64,000 nucleotides of DNA from Escherichia coli (GTDB lineage: Bacteria; Pseudomonadota; Gammaproteobacteria; Enterobacterales; Enterobacteriaceae), in assembly GCF_013122565.1 (NCBI RefSeq), contig NZ_CP053258.1; one strand, 5' to 3'. The notes beneath the pieces were generated by a model. It made no database searches, had not been told where the DNA came from, and saw nothing but the letters and a program-made list of their open reading frames with translations. Of this stretch, positions 788 to 64,000 are shown one piece after another; position 1 is the stretch's first letter, and every line of letters begins with the position of its first letter. Both the position numbers and the translations under genes were made by a program.

Positions 788-1525
788 ATGAAAAACGTTG
801 GCGACCTGATGCAACGCCTGCAAAAAATGATGCCTGCCCATATCAAACCTGCATTCAAAACGGGTGAAGAACTACTGGCCTGGCAGAAAGAACAAGGGGC
901 GATCCGCTCCGCCGCTCTCGAACGTGAAAATCGGGCGATGAAAATGCAGCGCACCTTTAACCGCTCCGGTATTCGTCCACTGCATCAGAACTGCTCCTTT
1001 GAGAACTATCGCGTTGAGTGTGAAGGGCAGATGAATGCGTTAAGCAAAGCGCGCCAGTATGTCGAAGAGTTTGACGGCAACATCGCCAGCTTCATCTTTT
1101 CTGGTAAGCCAGGAACCGGCAAAAACCATCTGGCGGCGGCAATCTGCAACGCGCTGCTGCTACGCGGTAAATCCGTATTGATTATCACCGTGGCCGATAT
1201 TATGTCGGCGATGAAAGATACCTTCAGGAATAGCGGTACCAGCGAAGAACAACTGCTTAACGATCTGAGCAATGTTGATCTGCTGGTGATCGATGAGATC
1301 GGCGTGCAAACCGAATCGAAATACGAAAAAGTGATCATTAACCAGATCGTCGATCGCCGCTCTTCTTCCAAACGCCCAACCGGGATGCTGACCAACAGTA
1401 ATATGGAAGAGATGACCAAGTTGCTGGGCGAACGCGTGATGGACCGTATGCGCCTGGGTAACAGTTTGTGGGTGATCTTCAACTGGGATAGCTACCGTAG
1501 CCGGGTAACGGGTAAAGAGTATTAA
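788..1525 (+). CDS. dnaC: Helicase loader DnaC
   Basis: 245 aa, Walker A GKPGTGKNHLAAA, Walker B LLVIDEIG; sequence recognised as DnaC. Confidence 0.95.
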   Translation: MKNVGDLMQRLQKMMPAHIKPAFKTGEELLAWQKEQGAIRSAALERENRAMKMQRTFNRSGIRPLHQNCSFENYRVECEGQMNALSKARQYVEEFDGNIASFIFSGKPGTGKNHLAAAICNALLLRGKSVLIITVADIMSAMKDTFRNSGTSEEQLLNDLSNVDLLVIDEIGVQTESKYEKVIINQIVDRRSSSKRPTGMLTNSNMEEMTKLLGERVMDRMRLGNSLWVIFNWDSYRSRVTGKEY

Positions 1526-42600: not shown

Positions 42601-44877
42601 TCCATGACCGGGAACTTCACGCTAAGTAGTGAAACCGCCCGCACCGATGCAAACGGTGATGCCGTGGTCACATTGCGAGGCACAAAAGCGGGTGAGTTTA
42701 CAGTTACGGCGACGCTGACCAGAAATAACACCGTTGCTCATCAGCAAGTCACTTTTATTGGGGATACAAACAGTGCGCAGCTCCAGCCGCTGACTGCCTC
42801 ATTAAATACCATTGTTGCGGGTAACAGTACGGGGAGTACCCTGACGGCAACGATCCTGGACGCTTACCAAAATCCGCTTAAAGACCAGCAGGTCACATTC
42901 CAGAGTAACGATGTCACTCTAAGTGGAACAGAAGTCACCACCAATACGCTGGGTCAGGCGACGGTAACAATGACCAGCAATATTGCCGGACAACATAACG
43001 TCGTGGTGAGCCGGAAAGCGCAAGCCTCCGATAATAAAACGTTTAGTTTATCAGTGCTGCCGGATGAAAGTTCGGCGAAGGTAATAAGTATAACCGGAGC
43101 CGAAAAAACGATAACGGTGGGCGAAAACATCACGCTACGGATACTCGTCCAGGACGCGTTTAACAATGTAATAGCGGGTCAACGCGTCAGATTAAGTGCG
43201 CAGCCAACAGCTAACATTACGATAGGCGATACGGCTTACACCGATAATAACGGTTATGCGTACGTTAACCTTATTAGCACCCAGCCTGGGGTTTATCAGG
43301 TGACGGCAACGCTGGACAATAACAGTAGTAGTAAGGTTGACGTGAATGTGGCAAATGGCAAACTCGAGTTAACATCATCGAAGCCAGAAACCACGGTCCA
43401 TAATAGTGAAGGTATTACGCTTACCGCAACGGCGAGAAATGCTCGGGATGAATTGATGCCTGGGCAAATTATCACCTTTAGCGTAACGCCTGAAGGTGCA
43501 ACGCTAAGCAATACAGGGGAAATCCTTACTGACCAGTCTGGTCAGGCCAAAGTGACGCTGACCAGTGACAAAGTGAATATCTATACCGTTACGGCCACAA
43601 TGGGCAAAGATGTTCCCGTTCAGAGCCAGGTAACGGTTGCGGTTAAGGCAGATGCTAAAACGGCACATGTTGTGAGCGTCGTGGCTTCTCCTGACACCAT
43701 AACCGCCGACGGCGTTGATAGCAGCACCATCACTTCACGAGTAGAAGATGATTACGGATTCCCGGTTGAAGGTGTCGATGTTAGTTATGCCTTAGACACC
43801 AAAGGCAGCCCGGTAGTTAATATTCCAACTACGCGTACCGATCAGTCCGGGCAAGTCACGGCGACAATAACCAGTACATTGGCAGAAACCTTAACAGTCA
43901 ATGTGCAAGTTCCTGGTACAGCCAACCAATCCGCAACCATTACATTGGTTGCCGGCACGGCCGATGAAAGTAAGTCAATTTTGAAATCCGACGTTGACAC
44001 TCTGAAGGCTGACTACCAGCAGAGCGCAAAACTTACGCTAACATTGCAAGACAAGTACGGTAACCCGATAGTGACGTCTGATCATCTGGAATTTGTCCAG
44101 TCAGGCCCCTTCGTGAACTTTCTCAAGTTGAGCGATATTGATTACAGCCAAAGAAATTATGGCGAGTACACCGTGACTGTCACTGGCGGAAAAGAGGGAA
44201 CAGCGACCCTCATTCCCATGCTGAACGGGGTTCATCAGGCAAACTTAAGCATATCGCTGAATCTCATCCACTCGATAAAAGAAATGTCCGGTCATGTCAC
44301 TGCAAACAACCATACCTTCTCAACGGCTAAATTCCCGAGCGAAGGTTTTGCAGGAGCGTATTACACACTCAACAATGATAACTTTGAAGCGGGTAAAACC
44401 GTTGATGATTATATGTTTTCAAGTTCACAGAGTTGGGTGTCTGTCGATGCTTCAGGTAAGGTTTCTTTCGCAAATATCGGCGATCAAACGTCAGTCACAA
44501 TAAGCGCTGTTCCCCGACAAGGAGGTACAACCTACCAGACCTTAATTAAGCTGAAAGGCTGGTGGGTGAATAATGGAAATCATACCAATATCTGGCTAGC
44601 TGCCAATGCGCTCTGTCATGCTAAAAATGATGGATATAATCTTCCTGGCATCACACATTTGACGTCTGGCGAAAACAAACGCACGCAGGGATCGCTGTAT
44701 GGTGAATGGGGGAACGTTGGAGCGTTTTCCAGTAATTCGCAATTTACACCGGGAGCTTACTGGACAAGTGAATCTGATGATTACAGTCGGCACTACTATG
44801 TGCAGATGCTAACCGGTATGACCGGAAGCGACGCTGATTCCAGCCCCCAACTGACCGCCTGCCGTAAATCACTTTAA
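39637..44877 (+). CDS. Inverse autotransporter adhesin (intimin/invasin family) with LysM, beta-barrel, about 12 Big domains and C-terminal lectin-like domain
   Basis: 1746 aa; LysM (YTLGALESAQSVADRFGISLEELRRLNQ); intimin/invasin barrel region (GLGWRHF...GWDLRAEGWLPAWPQLGGKLVYEQYYGDEVALF); repeated Big-like units (e.g. TLTVTAHDSDGTPVPG, TLTAIITDFHNNPLKD); Cys-containing C-terminal domain. Confidence 0.8.
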   Translation: MASTNAHQIKNNVQNSLCGLGDKIRRLTAGVCLFTQIFFPVMATAQNVVHAKPQTTVSSAPPLLENNTVPYTLGALESAQSVADRFGISLEELRRLNQFRTFARGFDNVRQGEELDVPATTSQKSHEQQNAVPPANGENTLENQIASTSQRVSTLLSQDMNSEQASGMARGWASSEASGAMTDWLNNFGTARISLGVDEDFSLKNSQFDFLHPWYDTPDYLLFSQHTLHRTDDRTQINTGLGWRHFTSSWMSGINLFFDHDLSRYHSRAGLGAEYWRDYLKLSSNAYIGLTGWRSAPELDNDFEARPANGWDLRAEGWLPAWPQLGGKLVYEQYYGDEVALFDKNDRQSNPHAITAGLNYTPFPLMTLSAEQRQGKQGENDTRFAVDLTWQPSSSMQKQLNPDEVAGRRSLAGSRYDLIDRNNNIVLEYRKKELIRLSLLDPVKGKSGEIKPLVSSLQTKYALKGYHIEAAALEAAGGKVSTSGKDITVTLPGYRFTNTPETDNTWSIDVTAEDVKGNLSRHEQSMVVIQAPTLSQKDSLLSVNPLTVAADKKSTTTLTVTAHDSDGTPVPGLELQTRSEGVQDITLSDWTDNGDGSYTQMLTAGTTSGSVTLTPQINGESAVKESIVVNIVPVVSSRDHSSITIDNVSYYAGDDIKVRVELKDDSNQPVAYQKEELVKAVTVENSKPGATIVWHEEQPGVYAANYPAHKQGTALRAQLNLHNWNAPLQSHIYNIEANQNKARVATLSATNNDVYADKKTFNTLTINVTDESDNPLTNHQVTFKNEKGSAEFVEPPQQNTDGYGVATINMVSQVAEENTISATLPNGFSQRIIAKFVSDSSTPKFKQLVADPDTIIAGNSQGSTLTAIITDFHNNPLKDMKVNFVAPGGSQLDNTTATTDQSGIVRVHLTSSKAGSYSVDASLEADKNIHQSVTITVVPNREQSVMTLNAGSGSAIANNTNTVILTASVKDVYGHPLPDEDVKFTLPASMTGNFTLSSETARTDANGDAVVTLRGTKAGEFTVTATLTRNNTVAHQQVTFIGDTNSAQLQPLTASLNTIVAGNSTGSTLTATILDAYQNPLKDQQVTFQSNDVTLSGTEVTTNTLGQATVTMTSNIAGQHNVVVSRKAQASDNKTFSLSVLPDESSAKVISITGAEKTITVGENITLRILVQDAFNNVIAGQRVRLSAQPTANITIGDTAYTDNNGYAYVNLISTQPGVYQVTATLDNNSSSKVDVNVANGKLELTSSKPETTVHNSEGITLTATARNARDELMPGQIITFSVTPEGATLSNTGEILTDQSGQAKVTLTSDKVNIYTVTATMGKDVPVQSQVTVAVKADAKTAHVVSVVASPDTITADGVDSSTITSRVEDDYGFPVEGVDVSYALDTKGSPVVNIPTTRTDQSGQVTATITSTLAETLTVNVQVPGTANQSATITLVAGTADESKSILKSDVDTLKADYQQSAKLTLTLQDKYGNPIVTSDHLEFVQSGPFVNFLKLSDIDYSQRNYGEYTVTVTGGKEGTATLIPMLNGVHQANLSISLNLIHSIKEMSGHVTANNHTFSTAKFPSEGFAGAYYTLNNDNFEAGKTVDDYMFSSSQSWVSVDASGKVSFANIGDQTSVTISAVPRQGGTTYQTLIKLKGWWVNNGNHTNIWLAANALCHAKNDGYNLPGITHLTSGENKRTQGSLYGEWGNVGAFSSNSQFTPGAYWTSESDDYSRHYYVQMLTGMTGSDADSSPQLTACRKSL

Positions 44878-53693: not shown

Positions 53694-54878
53694 TTAACGG
53701 CTAAAGAAAGCGCGCTGGATCGCCAGTTCGACACCGCGAACTTCGGCCAGGCCTTTCAGACGACCAATTGCGGAGTAACCTGGGTTGGTTTTCTTCTTCA
53801 GGTCGTCCAGCATCTGATGACCGTGGTCCGGACGCATCGGGATCAGGTCTTCTTTGCCTTCCGCTTTACGACGGTGTTCTTCTTCAACAATCGCTTTCAC
53901 CACTTCGTACATATCAACGTCACCGTTCAGGTGCGCCGCTTCGTGGAAGGTTTTCGGGTTATCTTCACGCATGGTGGAGCGCAGATGGGTGAAGTAAATA
54001 CGCGGACCGAACTGCTTGATCATATCAACCAGATCGTTGTCAGCACGCACGCCGTAGGAACCGGTGCACATGGTGAAACCGTTCGCCATGCTGTTTACGG
54101 TATCAACCATCCACTGCATATCTTCAATGGTGGAAACAATGCGCGGCAGGCCAAGGATCGGGCGCGGCGGATCGTCCGGGTGAACCGCCATACGGACGCC
54201 AACTTCTTCAGCAACTGGAATAATCGCTTTCAGGAAGACGGCAAAGTTTTCGCGCAGCTTCGCTTTATCGATATCTTTGTACAGCTCCAGGTGCTTACGG
54301 AACTGGTCGAGGGTATACCCTTCTTCCGCGCCCGGCAGACCGGCAATGATGTTACGCGTCAGACGCGCTTTGTCTTCGTCGCTCATAGTGGCGAAGCGTT
54401 CAGCTGCCTGAGCAATTTCTTCTTCGGTGTAATCCGCTTCCGCGCCTGGACGTTTCAGGATATGCATTTCGAATGCAGCGAATTCGATCTGGTCGAAGCG
54501 CAGAGCTTTGGAGCCGTCTGGCAGCACGTATTCGAGGTCAGTACGGGTCCAGTCGAGCACCGGCATGAAGTTGTAGCACACGGTGCGAATGCCGCACTGC
54601 GCCAGGTTGCGCAGAGTCTGCTGATAGTTAGCGATCCACTGCTCATAGTTGCCAGTGTGGGTTTTGATATCTTCGTGAATTGGTACGCTTTCTACGACAG
54701 ACCACACCAGGCCTGCGTCTTCAACGATCGCCTTGCGTTTGAGGATCTCTTCTACGGACCATACTTCGCCGTTCGGGATATGGTGCAGCGCGGTAACCAC
54801 GCCAGTTGCGCCCGCCTGACGGACATCAGCTAAAGAAACCGGATCGTTTGGGCCGTACCAGCGCCAGGTCTGTTCCAT
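53694..54878 (-). CDS. uxuA: Mannonate dehydratase
   Basis: [35 protein letters not shown]...; recognised as UxuA. Confidence 0.93.
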
Positions 54879-55040
54879 GATTTTTCCTCTTTCACATAGT
54901 GGGTTCCACAGCAAAGAGACGCGGAACCCTGGAGTTGTTTAGGTATCCGGATGAACAACCAGACCGCAGCCGTGGCGTTGCATCGGATGAGATGGCGTAT
55001 AAGTTCTACCTTTTGGTAAGACATGTCAACCCGAATTCTA

Positions 55041-55057
55041 AAATTGGTTAACCACAT
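55041..55057. promoter_or_regulatory. Candidate UxuR/ExuR operator upstream of uxuA
   Basis: aaattggttaaccacat contains TGGT-TA-ACCA; about 165 bp upstream of the uxuA start. Confidence 0.45.
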
Positions 55058-55148
55058 CACAAGAATTTCACTCTCATGGTTGTTGATGCAAATTGCAGCA
55101 AAGGGTAATCGATGGTTATTGATCAGAGGATGTGACATTCATAGCAAC

Positions 55149-55164
55149 AATGGTTGACCAATTT
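55149..55164. promoter_or_regulatory. Second candidate UxuR/ExuR-type palindrome
   Basis: aatggttgaccaattt contains TGGT-TG-ACCA. Confidence 0.3.
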
Positions 55165-55736
55165 ACATAACATGTCGCCCAAAATAACAATGGATTAACC
55201 TGGAGAGATAAAACGTTATTAGTTTCTCGCAGACTACGGTGGTGATTGCGCTCATGCTGTTCTACACCTCGCGGTCACGATTGGTGAGATCGTGACCGAA
55301 ACATCGCAAGAAGATTTTTACACACCAGTGTCTGATTATTTAACGACGGCCGCCCGGCGGGGTTATACGCAAGTAGTGGTGAAACCCTACTCAACCACGG
55401 CGTCGAGGTGACCAGCGTTCTGAAGCTGCCCAAAATACAATCCTCTTGCAGAGACTATCCTCTGATCGCCTATTTAAAAATGAATGTTGAACAATTAGGA
55501 AAAGGAAATGTGATTTATTACAATAACTACGGTGACTATTCTAATAATATGACTTGTGAATAAAACTAAATGATCAATGGCAATTTACTACAGATAAAAT
55601 GCCTGACGAGATTCAATCATTATATGTTTAACTTGCCAGACATTTATTTTATAATAAAGAAAAATGCACATTCGTCGATTAATATTCAACGCGTAGACGT
55701 CATATCAGATATGCTATTTAAAAGGAATTAACTCTA

Positions 55737-55886
55737 ATGGCACACAGTATAAAGCAATGTTTCCATGCGGTTGGAAAAGGTACTCTTTATACCGGACAGA
55801 TAAAAAACATGTCTAACAACAGGCTTTTTCGTGCCAGCTATATTTGTCCAGTGTGTCACCCCATCCAAAAATTATCCACATCCTGA
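55737..55886 (+). CDS. Possible small Cys/His-containing protein (49 aa)
   Basis: Manual translation MAHSIKQCFHAVGKGTLYTGQIKNMSNNRLFRASYICPVCHPIQKLSTS; aagga Shine-Dalgarno about 11 nt upstream; AT-rich island spacer; could be spurious. Confidence 0.25.
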   Translation: MAHSIKQCFHAVGKGTLYTGQIKNMSNNRLFRASYICPVCHPIQKLSTS

Positions 55887-56068
55887 CGTTACGTTAGATA
55901 TAGAGAAAAGAGGTTGTACTGTGCAATATGCAAACCGCATAAGCGAATATAATTTCTAAGTTGATATTGTCTGGCTGTTGGGAGCTAAGCAATATAAATA
56001 TCACCAGTTGTCAGAACGGTTATATAGACCAGGAGCGTTTCGGCTCCTGGTCTGTTTCGGACATATTA

Positions 56069-58183
56069 TCAGTCAGCCACTAATAGCGGGCTAGGGATAC
56101 CAGATGATGAAACAAACAGCCCTTTTACGGCACGGGTTGCAGCCACATGCAGTAACGCGCGCTCATTAAATAATGCATCACGCTGTTCAACGGGATCATC
56201 GGATGCTAATGCTTTTATTTCCGGCACAACGCCTTCGTTAATTCCCACCAGGAACACATACTGGAACTCAAGCCCTTTAATACGGTGCATCGTTGCAACC
56301 CGCACGCCAGGGCGTGCATCGCTGTCACCGCTATCATTGCCTAAATTAAATGTCTCAATTCCGGCGTCATTCAGTGCTGATGCGTAGCGGTCACAAGCAT
56401 GTTTAGTACGCGCAGTAATGCAGATATCCTGAGAACGAACCTGATTCGCCAGCAATGCCTGAATTTGCTTGACGAGCGTTGCAGCCTCTTCTTTGAAATC
56501 TGCCGCATGCGTAATCATGGGCTTTTCCCCGTGCAGTAATGACAAATAATCATTACTGGTATCCGCTTCGCCATCGAGGTTATCAACCTTCACACCAGTT
56601 AACAGCCCAACAGCAAATTGACGCGTCTCTTCTGTGGTCCGATAGTTAATCTTCAATTTTTTACTGCGACGACCACGGACGTTAATACCACACTGACCAA
56701 GAACGACCTTATTGCGATAAATACGCTGATGCCCATCCCCGACAATAAACAGATCGTTGGGCGACTCGGGAACCAGGCTGCGAATAAGAGTAAATGCCGG
56801 GGCACCGATATCTTGAGCTTCATCGACCACAATACTGCTATAAGGTAGTTGAACCTGTTTTTCTTTAAACAGAACAATAGCCTCATGCATGGCATCGCCC
56901 ATTTCGCGCAGTTTGGCACGCGCCATTTGTGCTCTGAATTCTTCAAAGACTGGCCAGATTTTCGCCCGTTGAATACGGGATAACGCTGTACCACGTCCAA
57001 CCCGGCTGACTTTGAGGTATTCCTCCCGGGTGTAAACCGCATTTGGCTGGACAACGCGTTGCCACTCTTCAGCATAGAAATTGTCAGGTAGCCCCAGTTC
57101 GGCAGGTGCCTGCTGCAAGGCATAGTTCCAGCATTTGCGTCGCCCTTCATCGCTGTCGTATACCACGCGGAAATCATAACCGTGGCGTTTTAGTTGGTCG
57201 CTCATCCAGGCATCAATGTTAACGACGTCAATACGCGCCATCTCTTCTCGCGTACACAACCGCTGGAGATTAGCGCGAATATCTGCCGCCAGGTTACGCG
57301 TAAATGTCGTGAAAAGTACCTTCTTACCGGGTTTATCTGCCAGACGCTGAGATAACCACCGCGCACGGTGCATCGCAACAACCGTTTTCCCTGTACCTGC
57401 ACCACCCAGTACTCGTACCGGACCATTAGCGGGCGACTCCACCAGTTTTCGCTGGCTCGGATGCAGAAATACACGCCATTTTTCTAAAGGCGCATTAAGC
57501 ATCTGCAACAGCTCCTGTTCATTTTCAACGACATGGAAGCGACGTTTACTTCGTTCAATCGCCTCCATAAAGTCGTTGGTATCAACAGGCTCATCACGAT
57601 GATCGTTAAACTCTTCCAGCACTTCCTGGTAATCCAGCCCTTCTGCCAGCCAGTGCAGAGGTTCCCAGGCTTCTGCTGGCATTATGCTTTCAAGTTGATT
57701 AAGCCCGGCTTCATCGGTAAGCGCCATCACCTGATCAATAAAGACAGGCGGCACACCCAGGGCCAGAATCTGTTCCGCGCTGTAAGCTGCGAAGAGTTTC
57801 GGTTTATCAACCACCGTTTCCGCTGCCGGTTTGATATAGCTAATATCAATGACCTGAATCGCGCCGGTAACCGGGTGAATCGAACAATCATGCCGCCGCG
57901 CCCAGTCGTATGCTTCGTCGTGTTTATCCACCCACATCAGCATATACAGGGCACCCTGTTCAGGTTTCAGAACAATGCCGCGATAAGTTTGATCGATTCG
58001 CACCGAATGGACATTTTTACTGCGCGCATCGTGGATCTTTTCATAGTTAAGTCCATTACTGGTCGGGTCCTGACGGAATTTGGAGATGAATTCCTGCACC
58101 TTTTTTTGCTGTGCTTTTGGGATCCGCGCGAATGCGCCCAGAAAACCATCAGAAAGTGCCACCTTGGGCGTTTGCACCGTCAT
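56069..58183 (-). CDS. UvrD/PcrA-like SF1 helicase with about 220-aa N-terminal domain of unknown function
   Basis: 704 aa; Walker A VLGGAGTGKT; VVDEAQD; FIVGDGHQRIY; C-terminal RIKGLEFQYVFLVG; start overlaps the stop of the upstream giant gene (ATGA). Confidence 0.8.
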   Translation of the reverse strand: MTVQTPKVALSDGFLGAFARIPKAQQKKVQEFISKFRQDPTSNGLNYEKIHDARSKNVHSVRIDQTYRGIVLKPEQGALYMLMWVDKHDEAYDWARRHDCSIHPVTGAIQVIDISYIKPAAETVVDKPKLFAAYSAEQILALGVPPVFIDQVMALTDEAGLNQLESIMPAEAWEPLHWLAEGLDYQEVLEEFNDHRDEPVDTNDFMEAIERSKRRFHVVENEQELLQMLNAPLEKWRVFLHPSQRKLVESPANGPVRVLGGAGTGKTVVAMHRARWLSQRLADKPGKKVLFTTFTRNLAADIRANLQRLCTREEMARIDVVNIDAWMSDQLKRHGYDFRVVYDSDEGRRKCWNYALQQAPAELGLPDNFYAEEWQRVVQPNAVYTREEYLKVSRVGRGTALSRIQRAKIWPVFEEFRAQMARAKLREMGDAMHEAIVLFKEKQVQLPYSSIVVDEAQDIGAPAFTLIRSLVPESPNDLFIVGDGHQRIYRNKVVLGQCGINVRGRRSKKLKINYRTTEETRQFAVGLLTGVKVDNLDGEADTSNDYLSLLHGEKPMITHAADFKEEAATLVKQIQALLANQVRSQDICITARTKHACDRYASALNDAGIETFNLGNDSGDSDARPGVRVATMHRIKGLEFQYVFLVGINEGVVPEIKALASDDPVEQRDALFNERALLHVAATRAVKGLFVSSSGIPSPLLVAD

Positions 58184-61100
58184 TTGTCACCTCCGGACAG
58201 ATGTTGCAATGTATTTTCGTCAATTGGCCCGAATGCAACGTGCCAACCTCTGGTTGTGAATAATGGAATAAATTCTTGATTATCAATAATCAATGCCCAT
58301 TTTTGTGATGGCCAGGCGAGATCGGCTTCTGCAATAATTTCACCCTCATCATTTTGCAATTCGTAGCCGAGAGTCGGCGCAGAGAGAGAATGAGACTGAA
58401 GCAACGCGATCTCTTCAGCGCTTAATAAGCCAAACTCAATAATCTCAGCCCAACTTTCATCAGTCTCTGGTACTGCCTCTGGCGTTGCCGAAACTTTAGT
58501 GTCAACGCTTTCCTGCGGTAAATGCACGGCTTTACGGCTGGTAAAGGTCATATCCGGCAGGAACTGTAACAGGTTTACCAGTCGCCAGAAGCCATTGAGT
58601 CCCGCTTCATAACCGTCATCCTGCGTATAGCGATCGTCAAAACAGATATGCAAACGCAGCCAGCTGCGCATTTGTGCGACGCTGGTCGTCGGTTTAATGG
58701 CTTGTTGTGGTAACACCGAAGCCAGTTCAATAAATTGCTGCGATGAGTTACAGCTATCGAGTAAACCACCAAAGACAAACGGTTCGTCTGGCAAAAGCTC
58801 TGCTAGCCGCCAGGCTGGCGCGTTTTCCTGCATTTCATAGGCATACTTTTGTTTCGTTCCCGCGTCCTGTGACTTCTTCACATCCAACCACACCCAGGCA
58901 TGTGCAGCAGCCATTCTCTGCCATAACTGCGTTCTTCCGCCCGGATCGGCGAGATAATCCAGCAGCAGTGCAAAACTGTTACGTTCCCGGAACGACGCTT
59001 CAAGGGCCGCAAAGTTGGTATCGTGAAACAGGTTATAAAACTTAGGCTGTTTCATATCCGGGTTATGCCCAAGTCCCAGGACATCCTGAACATGTTTAAG
59101 CCCAGGCTCTTTGAGATCGGCCCACGTGACTGTCCACACCCAGAAATTACCGCTATCCCGAATCGCCTGGCGTTTTTGCACATCCTCTGCGACGCTATTT
59201 TTGTGGAACGCAAAGCCATCAAGGAAAATAGCCACCGGTTTAATGGCATCAGACTGCATAAGCGGATATAGCACGTAATCCGGGCGACAAGGGATCCCCA
59301 CCGCCTCTTTAGCGCCTAAATCCACCTGAGCTTTAAGATGCCAGCTCATCATCGGTTCGCTGCGGGTGTTAATAATCCACCCAGCGCCCTGATGCGCGTA
59401 ACTGCGACTGACAATCAGGTTTTTATTTTCTTGCAGGCAGCTAATAAACCGTTTTTCCAGCTCACTGCCCATCATGGCTTCGAGGGAAATGTTTTTGATG
59501 GAATCAATTACCCGTATCGAATCTCTTGCCTGCAAAATTTTCGCCAGCAAGAGACGCGCCTGATCGCGGGAGACATACTTCATGCGCCCACGGTCACGGT
59601 AAGCGTAAACGCAACGATAACAACCATCTTTATGCGTATCATTGTTGCAACTGCATTCCACTATTGCCTGATAGGCCAGTTCAAGTAATTTCAGCAAATT
59701 GTCGGGAGTGCGCATCAGCTCTTTAAGAGAACCAGTTCCCCCCGGGACGGTATCGTAAATCACCAGATACTGCCGCCAGGATTCGCCTTCATTTTCCGGC
59801 TCGCGGTACACAACGCCTTTCAGGTGATCGACATTCCCCTTGAAGTAATGCTTAAGGCCGAGCTGGATCGCCGCCCCAAGAGAAGCCTCCACGACACGGT
59901 CATTACTGTAACTGCTTACCGGGAGCAGAATACGCAACGCTTCTGACTCCAGCTGGCGATAGAGGTAGAGATAATCTTCGAACTTCGCCTTTTCCGGTTC
60001 CGTGCGATATTTGCAGCTCAAATCATGACGTGGTTCATGATCGCGAGGACGCTGCACCATGCCGCACCCGAGGCAAACTTTAAACCCGGTTCGCTTCTTC
60101 GCTTCTCCGGCAATCATCAACTCATTGGCATCATCCGCCATTTTGCCGAAGTTGATATCCCGCAGGGTGACTTTGCTTAAAAATTCAAAACCAAACGGAA
60201 CTTCGCCTTCCTCAATCGCGTATGCCGCCGATACATCTTCTTTTTCGAAACTAACCAATAGCTGACGCTGGAAGAAAGCAGGTTCACGGCTGTCGCTCTC
60301 GTCGCTGATCTGGCTATCACGTGCGCTGGCGCGGGCATAAACCTGGCGAAGTTTCAGCAGCGTGGTTTTTTGTCCGGCATCGGCCCACCCCGGTGTGCCA
60401 CATTTCGGGCAATATTTATGCTGGTCGCCCGTCTGGTCGATATTTTCGCTGTAGTTACAGTGGCTACAGATACGCCAGTTCTCCGGCTCAGAGACCTTCA
60501 GGTCTATCTGCTCAATTTCAACTTTATGCCCACCGGCATAGAAATTATTCAGCGGAGCCAGCTCAGCCAGCGCCGTTGATGCCGGGCGTTCATATTCGAA
60601 AGTGGTGTTTTGATATTCACGCGCTTCCCCGCCTTCTTTACGCCGCCAGAGCACAGAACGTAACGTAATACCGGCTTCCGGGAAGGCGTAGTTAGGCAGC
60701 AGCCCTTCATCCGTGAGGAAATTCAGCGTTTGCTTATTGTTGATTTGATTGACCAGCGCCATCAGCGCCTGTCGTTCTGAAGTTAACTCGCGCATATCGC
60801 TATCAAAGTTTTGATCGCGCGGCGCGTTCTCCAGTTTATCGATACTGCGCTTGAGCTTATCGATGCGTGAGCGCAAAGATTTGCGATCTTCCACCAGCAG
60901 TTTTAACGCTTCTTCGATACGCTGCACCAGCGAGCGTTGTCCTGGCGCGCCCTGAAGATAAGACAACAGCTGTTGGCGAGTTTCTGCGGCAAGATCGGGG
61001 AAGATCGCCGTAAATTGTGCAGCAATCTCCGCATGATGCTGTTCGATATATCGCAGTAAGTTATACGGAAAACCCGATTTACGCCCGAACTCCAGCTCAT

Positions 61101-64000: not shown

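What the first reader, a model, noticed from the sequence alone, without database searches (positions are those of the whole stretch)
58180..64000. Domain architecture of the giant helicase: split SF2 core, DUF1998-like motif, Vsr-like nuclease
Helicase motif III (about aa 92 of the visible ORF) and motifs V/VI (aa 850-886) are separated by about 750 aa containing two CxxC Zn-ribbon-like pairs, an unusually large insertion. Downstream, LVIYDTVPGGTGSL followed by CSCNNDTHKDGCYRCVYAYRD fits what I recall as the DUF1998 signature (nt about 59590-59990). Further on, CRPDYVLYPLMQSDAIKPVAIFLDGFAFH...RDSGNFWVWTVTW (nt about 59110-59310) resembles the Vsr/DUF559 endonuclease core. Combining helicase, DUF1998 and a Vsr-like nuclease in one polypeptide would make this a candidate self-contained translocase-nuclease effector.
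Basis: partly seen in the sequence, partly recalled or inferred. Interest (0 to 1): 0.7.

Follow-up and report, generated by a model that had tools for sequence, protein, structure and literature searches.

The report
ArmC helicase-nuclease of ARMADA II

Summary
Every motif is at the stated coordinates. The ORF (window 58180-64000, minus strand) runs off the window: the true protein has 2113 aa and its first 179 aa lie outside.

All three interpretations hold:
- Split SF2 core: DEAD and Helicase_C Pfam hits lie about 715 aa apart.
- DUF1998 (now Pfam MZB): E 6.6e-13.

The gene is not new. [quoted passage not shown] Bell et al. 2025 (PMC12458937) describe this architecture and showed that the ArmC Walker A and B motifs are needed for defence. 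The large insertion is typical of the family.

Still untested: nuclease activity of the Vsr domain.

One side observation may be new. ArmC's last ~95 aa are homologous to the unassigned C-terminal extension of the island's ZorE (hhalign probability 97.8%).

The parts
58180..64000 (-). armC, visible 1939 codons plus the stop. It encodes the YprA-family helicase-nuclease of ARMADA type II. The first 179 codons, including Walker A, lie beyond the window end.
   Evidence: ORF and translation. 99.1-99.2% nucleotide identity to a 2113-aa 'DEAD/DEAH box helicase' present in 525 E. coli genomes. Identified as ArmC from the literature.
63688..63951 (-). C-terminal part of RecA1, containing motif II DELH (63811-63822) and motif III GTSAT (63703-63717). 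D55 in window numbering is D234 of the full protein.
   Evidence: Pfam DEAD E 8.2e-6. Motif positions. D234N abolishes defence (Bell et al.).
62713..63027 (-). Eight-cysteine zinc-binding module (four CxxC: C320/323, C377/380, C391/394, C421/424). It sits in the insertion between RecA1 and RecA2.
   Evidence: Positions. 93-100% conserved in 46 full-length homologues. Described as a beta-barrel zinc-binding module by Bell et al. and as ZBM_L in the DruE cryo-EM structure.
61612..61695 (-). Third cysteine cluster of the insertion (C764, C767, C786, C791), at the end of the domain that Bell et al. call MarR-like and the DruE cryo-EM paper calls the Cap.
   Evidence: 89-96% conserved. Domain naming taken; I did not model this region here.
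61324..61545 (-). RecA2 core with motifs V (LLSATPTLEMGIDVG) and VI (QRIGRAGR).
   Evidence: Pfam Helicase_C E 9.2e-11. Motif positions. BLASTP alignment to the neighbouring DruE starts here.
60007..60468 (-). Two small Cys clusters inserted in the OB/connector region: C1173/1176/1192/1195 and C1304/1307/1324.
   Evidence: 100% conserved. Bell et al. report two zinc-binding-module inserts in the OB fold of ARMADA type II helicases.
59593..59877 (-). MZB (DUF1998) zinc-binding domain with the four-Cys cluster C1444, C1446, C1455, C1458.
   Evidence: Pfam PF09369 E 6.6e-13. All four Cys are 100% conserved.
59077..59472 (-). Vsr-like nuclease domain of the PD-(D/E)xK superfamily. Predicted catalytic set in window numbering: D1569, D1589, H1594, D1601 (full protein: D1748, D1768, H1773, D1780).
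58468..59076 (-). Conserved middle C-terminal domain of unknown fold. It has an invariant Q1807 and near-invariant D1784 and N1804 in the NLLQFLP motif.
58183..58467 (-). Terminal domain of about 95 aa, homologous to the C-terminal extension of ZorE. Bell et al. call it a second Vsr-like domain, probably inactive.
   Evidence: PADLOC ZorE2 E 5e-9. BLASTP against the island's ZorE: 40% identity, E 2e-8. hhalign probability 97.8%, E 8.6e-13. No profile similarity to the first Vsr domain.
56069..58183 (-). [quoted passage not shown] Its start overlaps the armC stop by 4 nt.
   Evidence: PADLOC GajB E 2.5e-36 with the match starting at residue 240. NCBIfam UvrD/PcrA-type hits. Bell et al. describe the N-terminus as RelE-like.

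Best explanation
The ORF is armC, the third gene of an ARMADA type II anti-phage operon (armA-armB-armC-armD). The operon sits on the E. coli defence island that also carries Zorya II and Druantia III.

ArmC is a YprA/MrfA-family DExH helicase. Its two RecA-like halves are separated by family-specific inserted domains: a helical domain, an eight-Cys zinc module, and a large cap-like domain with another Cys4 site. After RecA2 come a helical, probably coiled-coil, region and then an OB-connector-MZB (DUF1998) 'canopy' with two more zinc inserts. Three C-terminal domains follow: a Vsr-like PD-(D/E)xK nuclease with an intact Asp/Asp/His/Asp site, a conserved domain of unknown fold, and a small terminal domain shared with ZorE.

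Most likely mechanism:
- Inferred from homologues: ArmC loads on single-stranded regions of phage DNA and translocates 3'-to-5' using ATP, as shown for MrfA and for the paralogue DruE. This brings the tethered Vsr-like domain to the DNA, which it nicks or cuts in a Mg2+-dependent way.
- Inferred by analogy with DISARM: the ArmB adenine methyltransferase marks host DNA as self.
- Unknown: what the ArmA (Snf2-type) and ArmD (UvrD/GajB-type) motors contribute, although both are required.

Shown by others: the system defends directly, without killing the cell. All four genes are needed, as are ArmC K110 (Walker A) and D234 (the DELH Asp seen in this window).
For: Identity of the gene:
- 99.1-99.2% nucleotide identity to a 2113-aa gene present in 525 of 5426 complete E. 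coli genomes.
- In strain ABW_A19 the gene order is zorA2-zorB2-zorE | druH-druE | DrmD-like helicase, 1639-aa methyltransferase, this gene, UvrD-like helicase. This is the published O-island 172 layout.
- The ArmA accession WP_001041505.1 is the one listed in Bell et al. Table S2.
- Window D55 plus 179 gives D234, the residue mutated to D234N by Bell et al..

Architecture:
- Pfam DEAD, Helicase_C and MZB hits.
- phmmer hits to the DruE structure 9tu7 (E 5e-48) and to YprA 6znp (E 4e-20).
- Six conserved Cys clusters.

Function, from the literature:
- Defence phenotype, requirement for all four genes, helicase and methyltransferase point mutants, and the non-abortive phenotype.
- Native-host deletions in strains ATCC 8739 and EDL933.
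- DruE is a 3'-to-5' DNA helicase that binds ssDNA.
Against: - No nuclease activity and no Vsr active-site mutant of ArmC has been reported in any paper I could read.
- In the paralogue DruE, one preprint found the fused PLD nuclease domains dispensable for defence in its assays. A fused nuclease is therefore not necessarily the effector.
- Translocation polarity, the DNA substrate, and the role of methylation in self/non-self discrimination are extrapolated from MrfA, DruE and DISARM.
- armA and armB lie outside the window. Their presence in this particular strain is inferred from near-identical genomes.
Confidence: 0.85

Rival explanations
1. The Vsr-like domain has the fold but is not the effector nuclease. 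It would act as a DNA-binding, lesion-sensing or modification-sensing module, or as a structural module. Killing of phage DNA would then come from unwinding and displacement by the three motors, from the RelE-like domain of ArmD, from host nucleases such as RecBCD, or from neighbouring systems such as ZorE or DruE.
For: - No nuclease mutant or biochemistry exists for ArmC.
- One preprint found the DruE PLD domains dispensable for defence.
- Many structural neighbours with this fold, such as RAP domains, are binding modules rather than nucleases.
- Related Druantia I and II helicases carry Vsr domains predicted to be inactive.
- ARMADA II acts synergistically with Druantia III.
Against: - The full Vsr/DUF559-type set is invariant or near-invariant across homologues of 22-40% identity: D1569 38/38, D1589 38/38, H1594 38/38, D1601 37/38, R1605 38/38. 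That is the pattern expected of a working active site.
- Bell et al. classify the domain as predicted active.
- ARMADA alone protects in a heterologous host.
Confidence: 0.2
2. The gene is a Druantia DruE, either a second copy or a new Druantia type, rather than part of a separate system.
For: The best PADLOC hits are DruE profiles: DruE3 347 bits and DruE1 324 bits for the full protein. The gene shares RecA2 through MZB with the neighbouring DruE at 23% identity.
Against: - The DruE profile matches are partial, whereas the real DruE 6 kb upstream scores 1717 bits over the whole profile.
- The C-terminus is Vsr-like, not PLD.
- The operon partners are a DrmD-like helicase, a DrmMI/PglX-like methyltransferase and a UvrD-like helicase, not DruH or DruA-D.
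- Phylogeny places ARMADA as a separate clade.
- The PADLOC database of 2023 predates ARMADA.
Confidence: 0.03
3. The locus is a DISARM class 1 variant in which DrmA and DrmB are fused and the PLD nuclease DrmC is replaced.
For: The operon has a DrmD-like helicase (333 bits), a DrmMI-like methyltransferase (192 bits) and a helicase plus DUF1998. The name ARMADA itself records this relationship.
Against: - DrmA profiles match ArmC only weakly: 46-49 bits, RecA2 only.
- ArmC carries the clade-specific insertions shared with Druantia, which DISARM lacks.
- There is no DrmC/PLD gene, and an extra UvrD-like gene is present.
Confidence: 0.05

Closest known systems
ArmC of ARMADA type II (E. coli NCTC 12900 / EDL933 z5899-z5902 / ATCC 8739; Bell et al. 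2025, PMC12458937; Li et al. 2025, doi 10.1101/2025.09.22.677730)
   Same: It is the same gene. It has the same length (2113 aa) and residue numbering (D234 in DELH). The operon partners and island are the same, as is the published domain list: inserted helical domain, zinc beta-barrel, MarR-like domain, coiled-coil, OB-CON-DUF1998, active Vsr domain, then two further C-terminal domains.
   Different: Only allelic differences. There are 7 aa differences from the ABW_A19 allele over the visible 1934 aa. The window lacks the first 179 codons.
DruE of Druantia type III (cryo-EM structures 9tu7 and 9wae; paralogue about 6 kb upstream on the same island)
   Same: Both are YprA-family helicases with RecA halves split by a helical domain, a two-zinc module and a cap domain. 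Both have the OB-CON-MZB canopy. They share 23% identity from RecA2 through MZB. DruE is a 3'-to-5' ssDNA-loading helicase, which is the basis of the mechanism proposed here.
   Different: DruE ends in two PLD-type domains and works with DruH. ArmC ends in a Vsr-like domain plus two other domains and works with ArmA, ArmB and ArmD.
DrmA+DrmB of DISARM class 1
   Same: Helicase plus OB-CON-DUF1998 module, in an operon with a Snf2-type helicase (DrmD) and an adenine methyltransferase (DrmMI).
   Different: In DISARM the helicase and the DUF1998 module are separate polypeptides, and the nuclease is a separate PLD protein (DrmC). DISARM lacks the insertions shared by ArmC and Druantia, and has no UvrD-type fourth gene.
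Vsr endonuclease (1cw0) and Vsr-like/DUF559-type domains (3hrl, I-Bth0305I 3r3p, RAP domains, BsoBI core)
   Different: Vsr H64 is replaced by Asp (FLDG), as I recall for DUF559 proteins. A three-stranded sheet is inserted after the first helix. The Pfam Vsr and DUF559 HMMs do not reach significance. The domain is fused to a 1.6-kaa motor instead of being a free T/G-mismatch repair enzyme.
MrfA/YprA of Bacillus subtilis (6znp)
   Same: Founding member of the helicase family, with a DExH core plus OB-CON-MZB. phmmer E 3.8e-20.
   Different: MrfA has 751 aa, no insertion between the RecA domains and no fused nuclease. It is a DNA-repair protein, not a defence protein.

Membership tests
YprA/MrfA-family SF2 helicases | DExH-type SF2 core with RecA1 and RecA2 motifs | tested here: met
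   Pfam DEAD E 8e-6 and Helicase_C E 9e-11. DELH, GTSAT and QRIGRAGR motifs. phmmer against YprA 6znp E 3.8e-20. Walker A lies outside the window but is present in the full-length allele (N-terminal DruE3 profile match at residues 79-280).
YprA/MrfA-family SF2 helicases | C-terminal MZB (DUF1998) domain with a four-Cys zinc site | tested here: met
   PF09369 E 6.6e-13. C1444, C1446, C1455 and C1458 are 100% conserved.
YprA/MrfA-family SF2 helicases | OB fold and beta-sheet connector between RecA2 and MZB | not tested
   I did not model this region. The only support is the continuous alignment to DruE and to the DruE1 profile across it, plus Bell et al..
ARMADA type II | Strict gene order: BrxHII/DrmD-like helicase, PglX/DrmMI-like methyltransferase, YprA-like helicase, GajB-like UvrD helicase | tested here: met
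   armD is in the window directly downstream, with a 4-nt overlap. armA and armB are outside the window but sit immediately upstream in genomes 99.1-99.2% identical over this gene.
ARMADA type II | YprA homologue carrying a C-terminal Vsr-type nuclease domain (not PLD), followed by extra C-terminal domains | tested here: met
   [not shown]
ARMADA type II | Confers phage defence that depends on the ArmC ATPase motifs | not testable with these tools
   Shown experimentally for essentially the same allele by Bell et al. (K110A and D234N) and by gene deletions in EDL933.
Vsr-like nucleases (PD-(D/E)xK superfamily) | Restriction-endonuclease-like alpha/beta fold with Vsr topology | tested here: met
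   [not shown]
Vsr-like nucleases (PD-(D/E)xK superfamily) | Conserved catalytic Asp (Vsr D51), His (H69) and Asp (D97) in register | tested here: met
   hhalign aligns RPD-Y and GFAFH to Vsr RPD-F and GCFWH. D1569, D1589 and H1594 are 38/38 conserved and D1601 is 37/38. The D97 equivalence rests on my own motif alignment, not on the hhalign match, which stops at the His.
Vsr-like nucleases (PD-(D/E)xK superfamily) | Significant match to a Vsr (PF03852) or DUF559 sequence profile | tested here: inconclusive
   HMMER against Pfam finds nothing for this protein, and only 2 of 38 homologues weakly hit the related REase family MTES_1575 (E about 0.02). Bell et al. report HHpred E 5.2e-5 to PF03852. 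No HHpred tool was available here.
Vsr-like nucleases (PD-(D/E)xK superfamily) | Mg2+-dependent DNA endonuclease activity | not testable with these tools
   No published assay was found.
Druantia DruE | Full-length match to a DruE profile, a PLD-type (type III) C-terminus, and a DruH or DruA-D partner | tested here: not met
   Only partial matches of 250-350 bits, against 1717 bits for the true DruE next door. No PLD domain. The operon partners are ArmA, ArmB and ArmD.
DISARM class 1 (DrmA/DrmB/DrmC) | Separate DrmA and DrmB genes plus a PLD nuclease DrmC | tested here: not met
   Here it is a single fused polypeptide. DrmA profiles match RecA2 only, at 46-49 bits. There is no PLD gene in the operon.

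The most novel reading that the evidence does not exclude
The terminal ~95-aa domain of ArmC and the C-terminal 'nuclease-like' extension of ZorE may be one shared module. A 2026 preprint found that extension enriched in Druantia-associated ZorE and could not assign it to a family. If so, the module could physically or functionally couple the co-resident systems of the island. For example, it could dock both effectors onto the same DNA intermediate or the same partner. The ZorE extension might then track ARMADA II, or the whole island, rather than Druantia III alone. The homology itself is solid (hhalign probability 97.8%). The coupling role is speculation.
Probability: 0.2. Interest if true: 0.5.

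Novelty: already known. Interest (0 to 1): 0.2.

Why it matters
ARMADA II is the dominant phage-resistance determinant of EHEC O157:H7 and of about 10% of sequenced E. coli, so it bears on phage therapy. ArmC is its presumed effector.

For the scan itself, the result is a validation. A reader working from raw sequence recovered the published domain architecture, including a Vsr-like nuclease that standard Pfam HMMs miss.

The one open point of substance is that the nuclease activity has never been tested. The residues to mutate are now defined: D1748, D1768, H1773 and D1780 in full numbering. The ArmC-ZorE shared domain gives a concrete lead for the reported synergy among the island's systems.

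Tried and rejected
- Plain Pfam HMMER on the C-terminal half, and on 38 homologues one by one, found no Vsr or DUF559 hit.
- An HMM of the C-terminal region against PDB sequences gave only chance-level hits.
- The word-indexed homologue search returned only 13 hits for the C-terminus and 5 for the terminal domain, mostly fragments. The exhaustive representative search was what worked.
- I tested whether the ZorE similarity reflects a recent swap with the co-resident ArmC. It does not: ZorE's C-terminus matches distant ArmC termini as well or better.
- I considered and rejected filing the gene as DruE or as fused DISARM DrmAB (see the rival explanations).
- A PHROGs call failed because I gave wrong frame coordinates, and I did not repeat it.
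- I did not model the insertion between the RecA domains.
Full report
**What is in the sequence**

Window 58180-64000 holds one long open frame on the minus strand. The frame is still open at the window edge, so the Met at 63984 listed by the ORF finder is internal. In a genome 99.1% identical over this stretch, the gene is 6342 nt long and encodes 2113 aa. The visible part starts at residue 175 and the internal Met is residue 180, so window aa plus 179 gives full-length numbering. These are DELH (aa 55-58), GTSAT (90-94), motifs V and VI (846-886), LVIYDTVPGGTGSL (1407-1420), the CSC...CYRC cluster (1444-1464), CRPDYV...FLDGFAFH (1566-1594) and RDSGNFWVWTVTW (1609-1621).

**Identity of the gene**

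The stretch occurs at 95-99% or higher identity in 525 of 5426 complete E. coli genomes, almost always once and on the chromosome. In strain ABW_A19 the neighbourhood is as follows:
- tRNA-Leu, then zorE-zorB2-zorA2;
- a STY4851/ECs_5259-family gene (druH);
- a 2104-aa helicase that matches the PADLOC DruE3 profile end to end (1717 bits);
- a DrmD-like Snf2 helicase (952 aa);
- a DrmMI/type IIG-like methyltransferase (1639 aa);
- this gene;
- a UvrD/GajB-like helicase (704 aa, window 56069-58183) whose start overlaps the stop of this gene by 4 nt.

[quoted passage not shown] The four-gene operon is armABCD, ARMADA type II, named by Bell et al. (bioRxiv 2025, PMC12458937) and studied in EDL933 by Li et al. 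(doi 10.1101/2025.09.22.677730). Two details clinch it. The ArmA accession in ABW_A19 (WP_001041505.1) is the one in Bell et al.'s Table S2. The DELH aspartate seen in the window is residue 234 of the full protein, exactly the ArmC D234N Walker B mutant that abolished defence. The PADLOC database of 2023 predates ARMADA. That explains why this gene gives only partial DruE hits there (255-347 bits).

**Split helicase core**

Pfam finds the end of a DEAD domain at window aa 12-99 and Helicase_C at aa 814-887. The two conserved halves of the motor are therefore about 715 aa apart. The gap is real, but it is a family trait. The DruE profiles have the same split. Bell et al. describe, for the whole ARMADA-BRIGADE-TALON-Druantia clade, a BrxA-like helical domain, a zinc-binding beta-barrel and a MarR-like domain inserted between or into the RecA folds. 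A 2026 cryo-EM study of DruE sees a five-helix domain, a two-zinc module and a 'Cap' domain there.

In a local alignment of 46 full-length homologues, the Cys residues of the insertion are strongly conserved. C320, C323, C377, C380, C391, C394, C421 and C424 are 93-100% conserved. C764, C767, C786 and C791 are 89-96% conserved. Further Cys clusters at 1173-1195 and 1304-1324 (both 100% conserved) sit in the OB/connector region, as Bell et al. describe for type II.

**DUF1998**

Pfam MZB (PF09369, the renamed DUF1998) matches window aa 1370-1459 with E 6.6e-13. Its four Cys (1444, 1446, 1455, 1458) are invariant. This point is settled.

**Vsr-like nuclease**

Sequence-to-profile methods fail here:
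- no Pfam family matches the last 470 aa even at E 10;
- only 2 of 38 homologues weakly touch the related REase family MTES_1575;
- a profile search of PDB sequences finds nothing.

I therefore collected homologues. There are 949 representatives with E <= 1e-3, mostly helicases of about 2100 aa that carry the whole C-terminal region. I aligned 38 of them and modelled the 470-aa region (pLDDT 87.9).

In that register, the equivalents of Vsr D51 and H69 are D1569 and H1594, and both are 38/38 conserved. The H64 position is an invariant Asp (D1589). D1601, which by motif order corresponds to D97, is 37/38 conserved. R1605 is invariant. The region has a restriction-endonuclease-like fold with an intact-looking active site.

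**The rest of the C-terminus**

After the Vsr domain the model shows two more folded units.

The last 95 aa hit the C-terminus of the PADLOC and NCBIfam ZorE models. Against the island's own ZorE, BLASTP gives 40% identity over 57 aa (E 2e-8). hhalign of the ArmC-terminal family against ZorE gives probability 97.8% and E 8.6e-13 over 76 columns, matching ZorE residues 278-353 of 367. ZorE's C-terminus matches distant ArmC termini equally well (best E 3e-16). This is therefore an old shared domain and not a recent local swap.

[quoted passage not shown] Neither that paper nor Bell et al. mention the ArmC link. I could not detect profile similarity between this terminal domain and the first Vsr domain.

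**How it most likely works**

Shown by others:
- ARMADA II cloned from E. coli NCTC 12900 protects against 13 of 80 phages without signs of abortive infection.
- Deleting any one of the four genes abolishes protection.
- ArmC K110A and D234N, ArmA K136A and D236N, ArmD K266A and ArmB N971A abolish it as well.
- Deletions in ATCC 8739 and EDL933 show that ARMADA II is the dominant defence and is synergistic with Druantia III.

Inferred:
- ArmC acts as a 3'-to-5' ssDNA-loading translocase, as measured for the paralogue DruE and for MrfA.
- It carries the Vsr-like domain to phage DNA, which the domain nicks or cleaves using the Asp/Asp/His/Asp site.
- ArmB methylation marks self, by analogy with DISARM.

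The nuclease step is untested. No active-site mutant or cleavage assay appears in any paper I could read. One preprint found the fused PLD domains of DruE dispensable in its assays. I therefore give the non-catalytic rival about 0.2.

**Classification and novelty**

The protein meets the tested criteria for a YprA-family helicase and for ARMADA type II ArmC. It fails those for DruE and for DISARM DrmA/DrmB. Its nuclease domain meets the fold and residue criteria for Vsr-like PD-(D/E)xK enzymes, but not a plain HMM threshold.

It is also already in the literature, in two 2025 preprints and cited by several 2026 ones. The finding is 'already known' and I score its interest low. What remains open is the nuclease activity, the identity of the middle domain, and the meaning of the domain shared with ZorE.

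**Limits**

- armA, armB and the first 179 codons of armC lie outside the window. Their presence in this strain is inferred from near-identical genomes.
- I did not model the RecA insertion or the OB region, so domain names there are taken from the cited papers.
- Domain boundaries in the parts list are approximate, to within about 10 residues.

Noticed in passing
window 58183-58467 (minus strand); L002:7839-8939 (minus strand; ZorE residues 278-353): The last ~95 aa of ArmC are homologous to the C-terminal extension of the same island's ZorE: BLASTP 40% identity over 57 aa, hhalign probability 97.8%, E 8.6e-13. A 2026 preprint calls that ZorE extension nuclease-like, unassignable to a family, and enriched in Druantia-associated ZorE. 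None of the papers I read mentions the link to ArmC.
   Followed up: partly
[not shown]
   Followed up: partly
window 54915-56069: uxuA (53694-54914) and its upstream intergenic region run to about 55219. About 600 bp of AT-rich DNA follow with no match in the three comparison loci. The sequence normally found downstream of armD resumes at about 55823. The gntP-fim-nanCMS block that separates uxuA from the island in strains ABW_A19 and PapRG-04-4 is therefore absent here.
   Followed up: partly
window 56069-58183 (minus strand): armD starts 4 nt before the armC stop (an ATGA overlap), which suggests translational coupling. Its UvrD/GajB-like match begins only at residue 240. The N-terminal extension of about 240 aa is the part Bell et al. 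call a RelE-like RNase domain. I did not test that.
   Followed up: no
window 63984-64000: The ORF finder starts the gene at an internal Met (63984). The frame is open to the window edge and the real start is 179 codons further upstream, so Walker A (K110) is not in the window.
   Followed up: yes
window 39637-44877 (plus strand): A 1746-aa ORF corresponds to the inverse autotransporter IatD. It is followed by kptA, yjiH, yjiG, iadA, hypT, iraD, yjiC, uxuR and uxuB. This is ordinary E. coli backbone at 98.4% identity.
   Followed up: no
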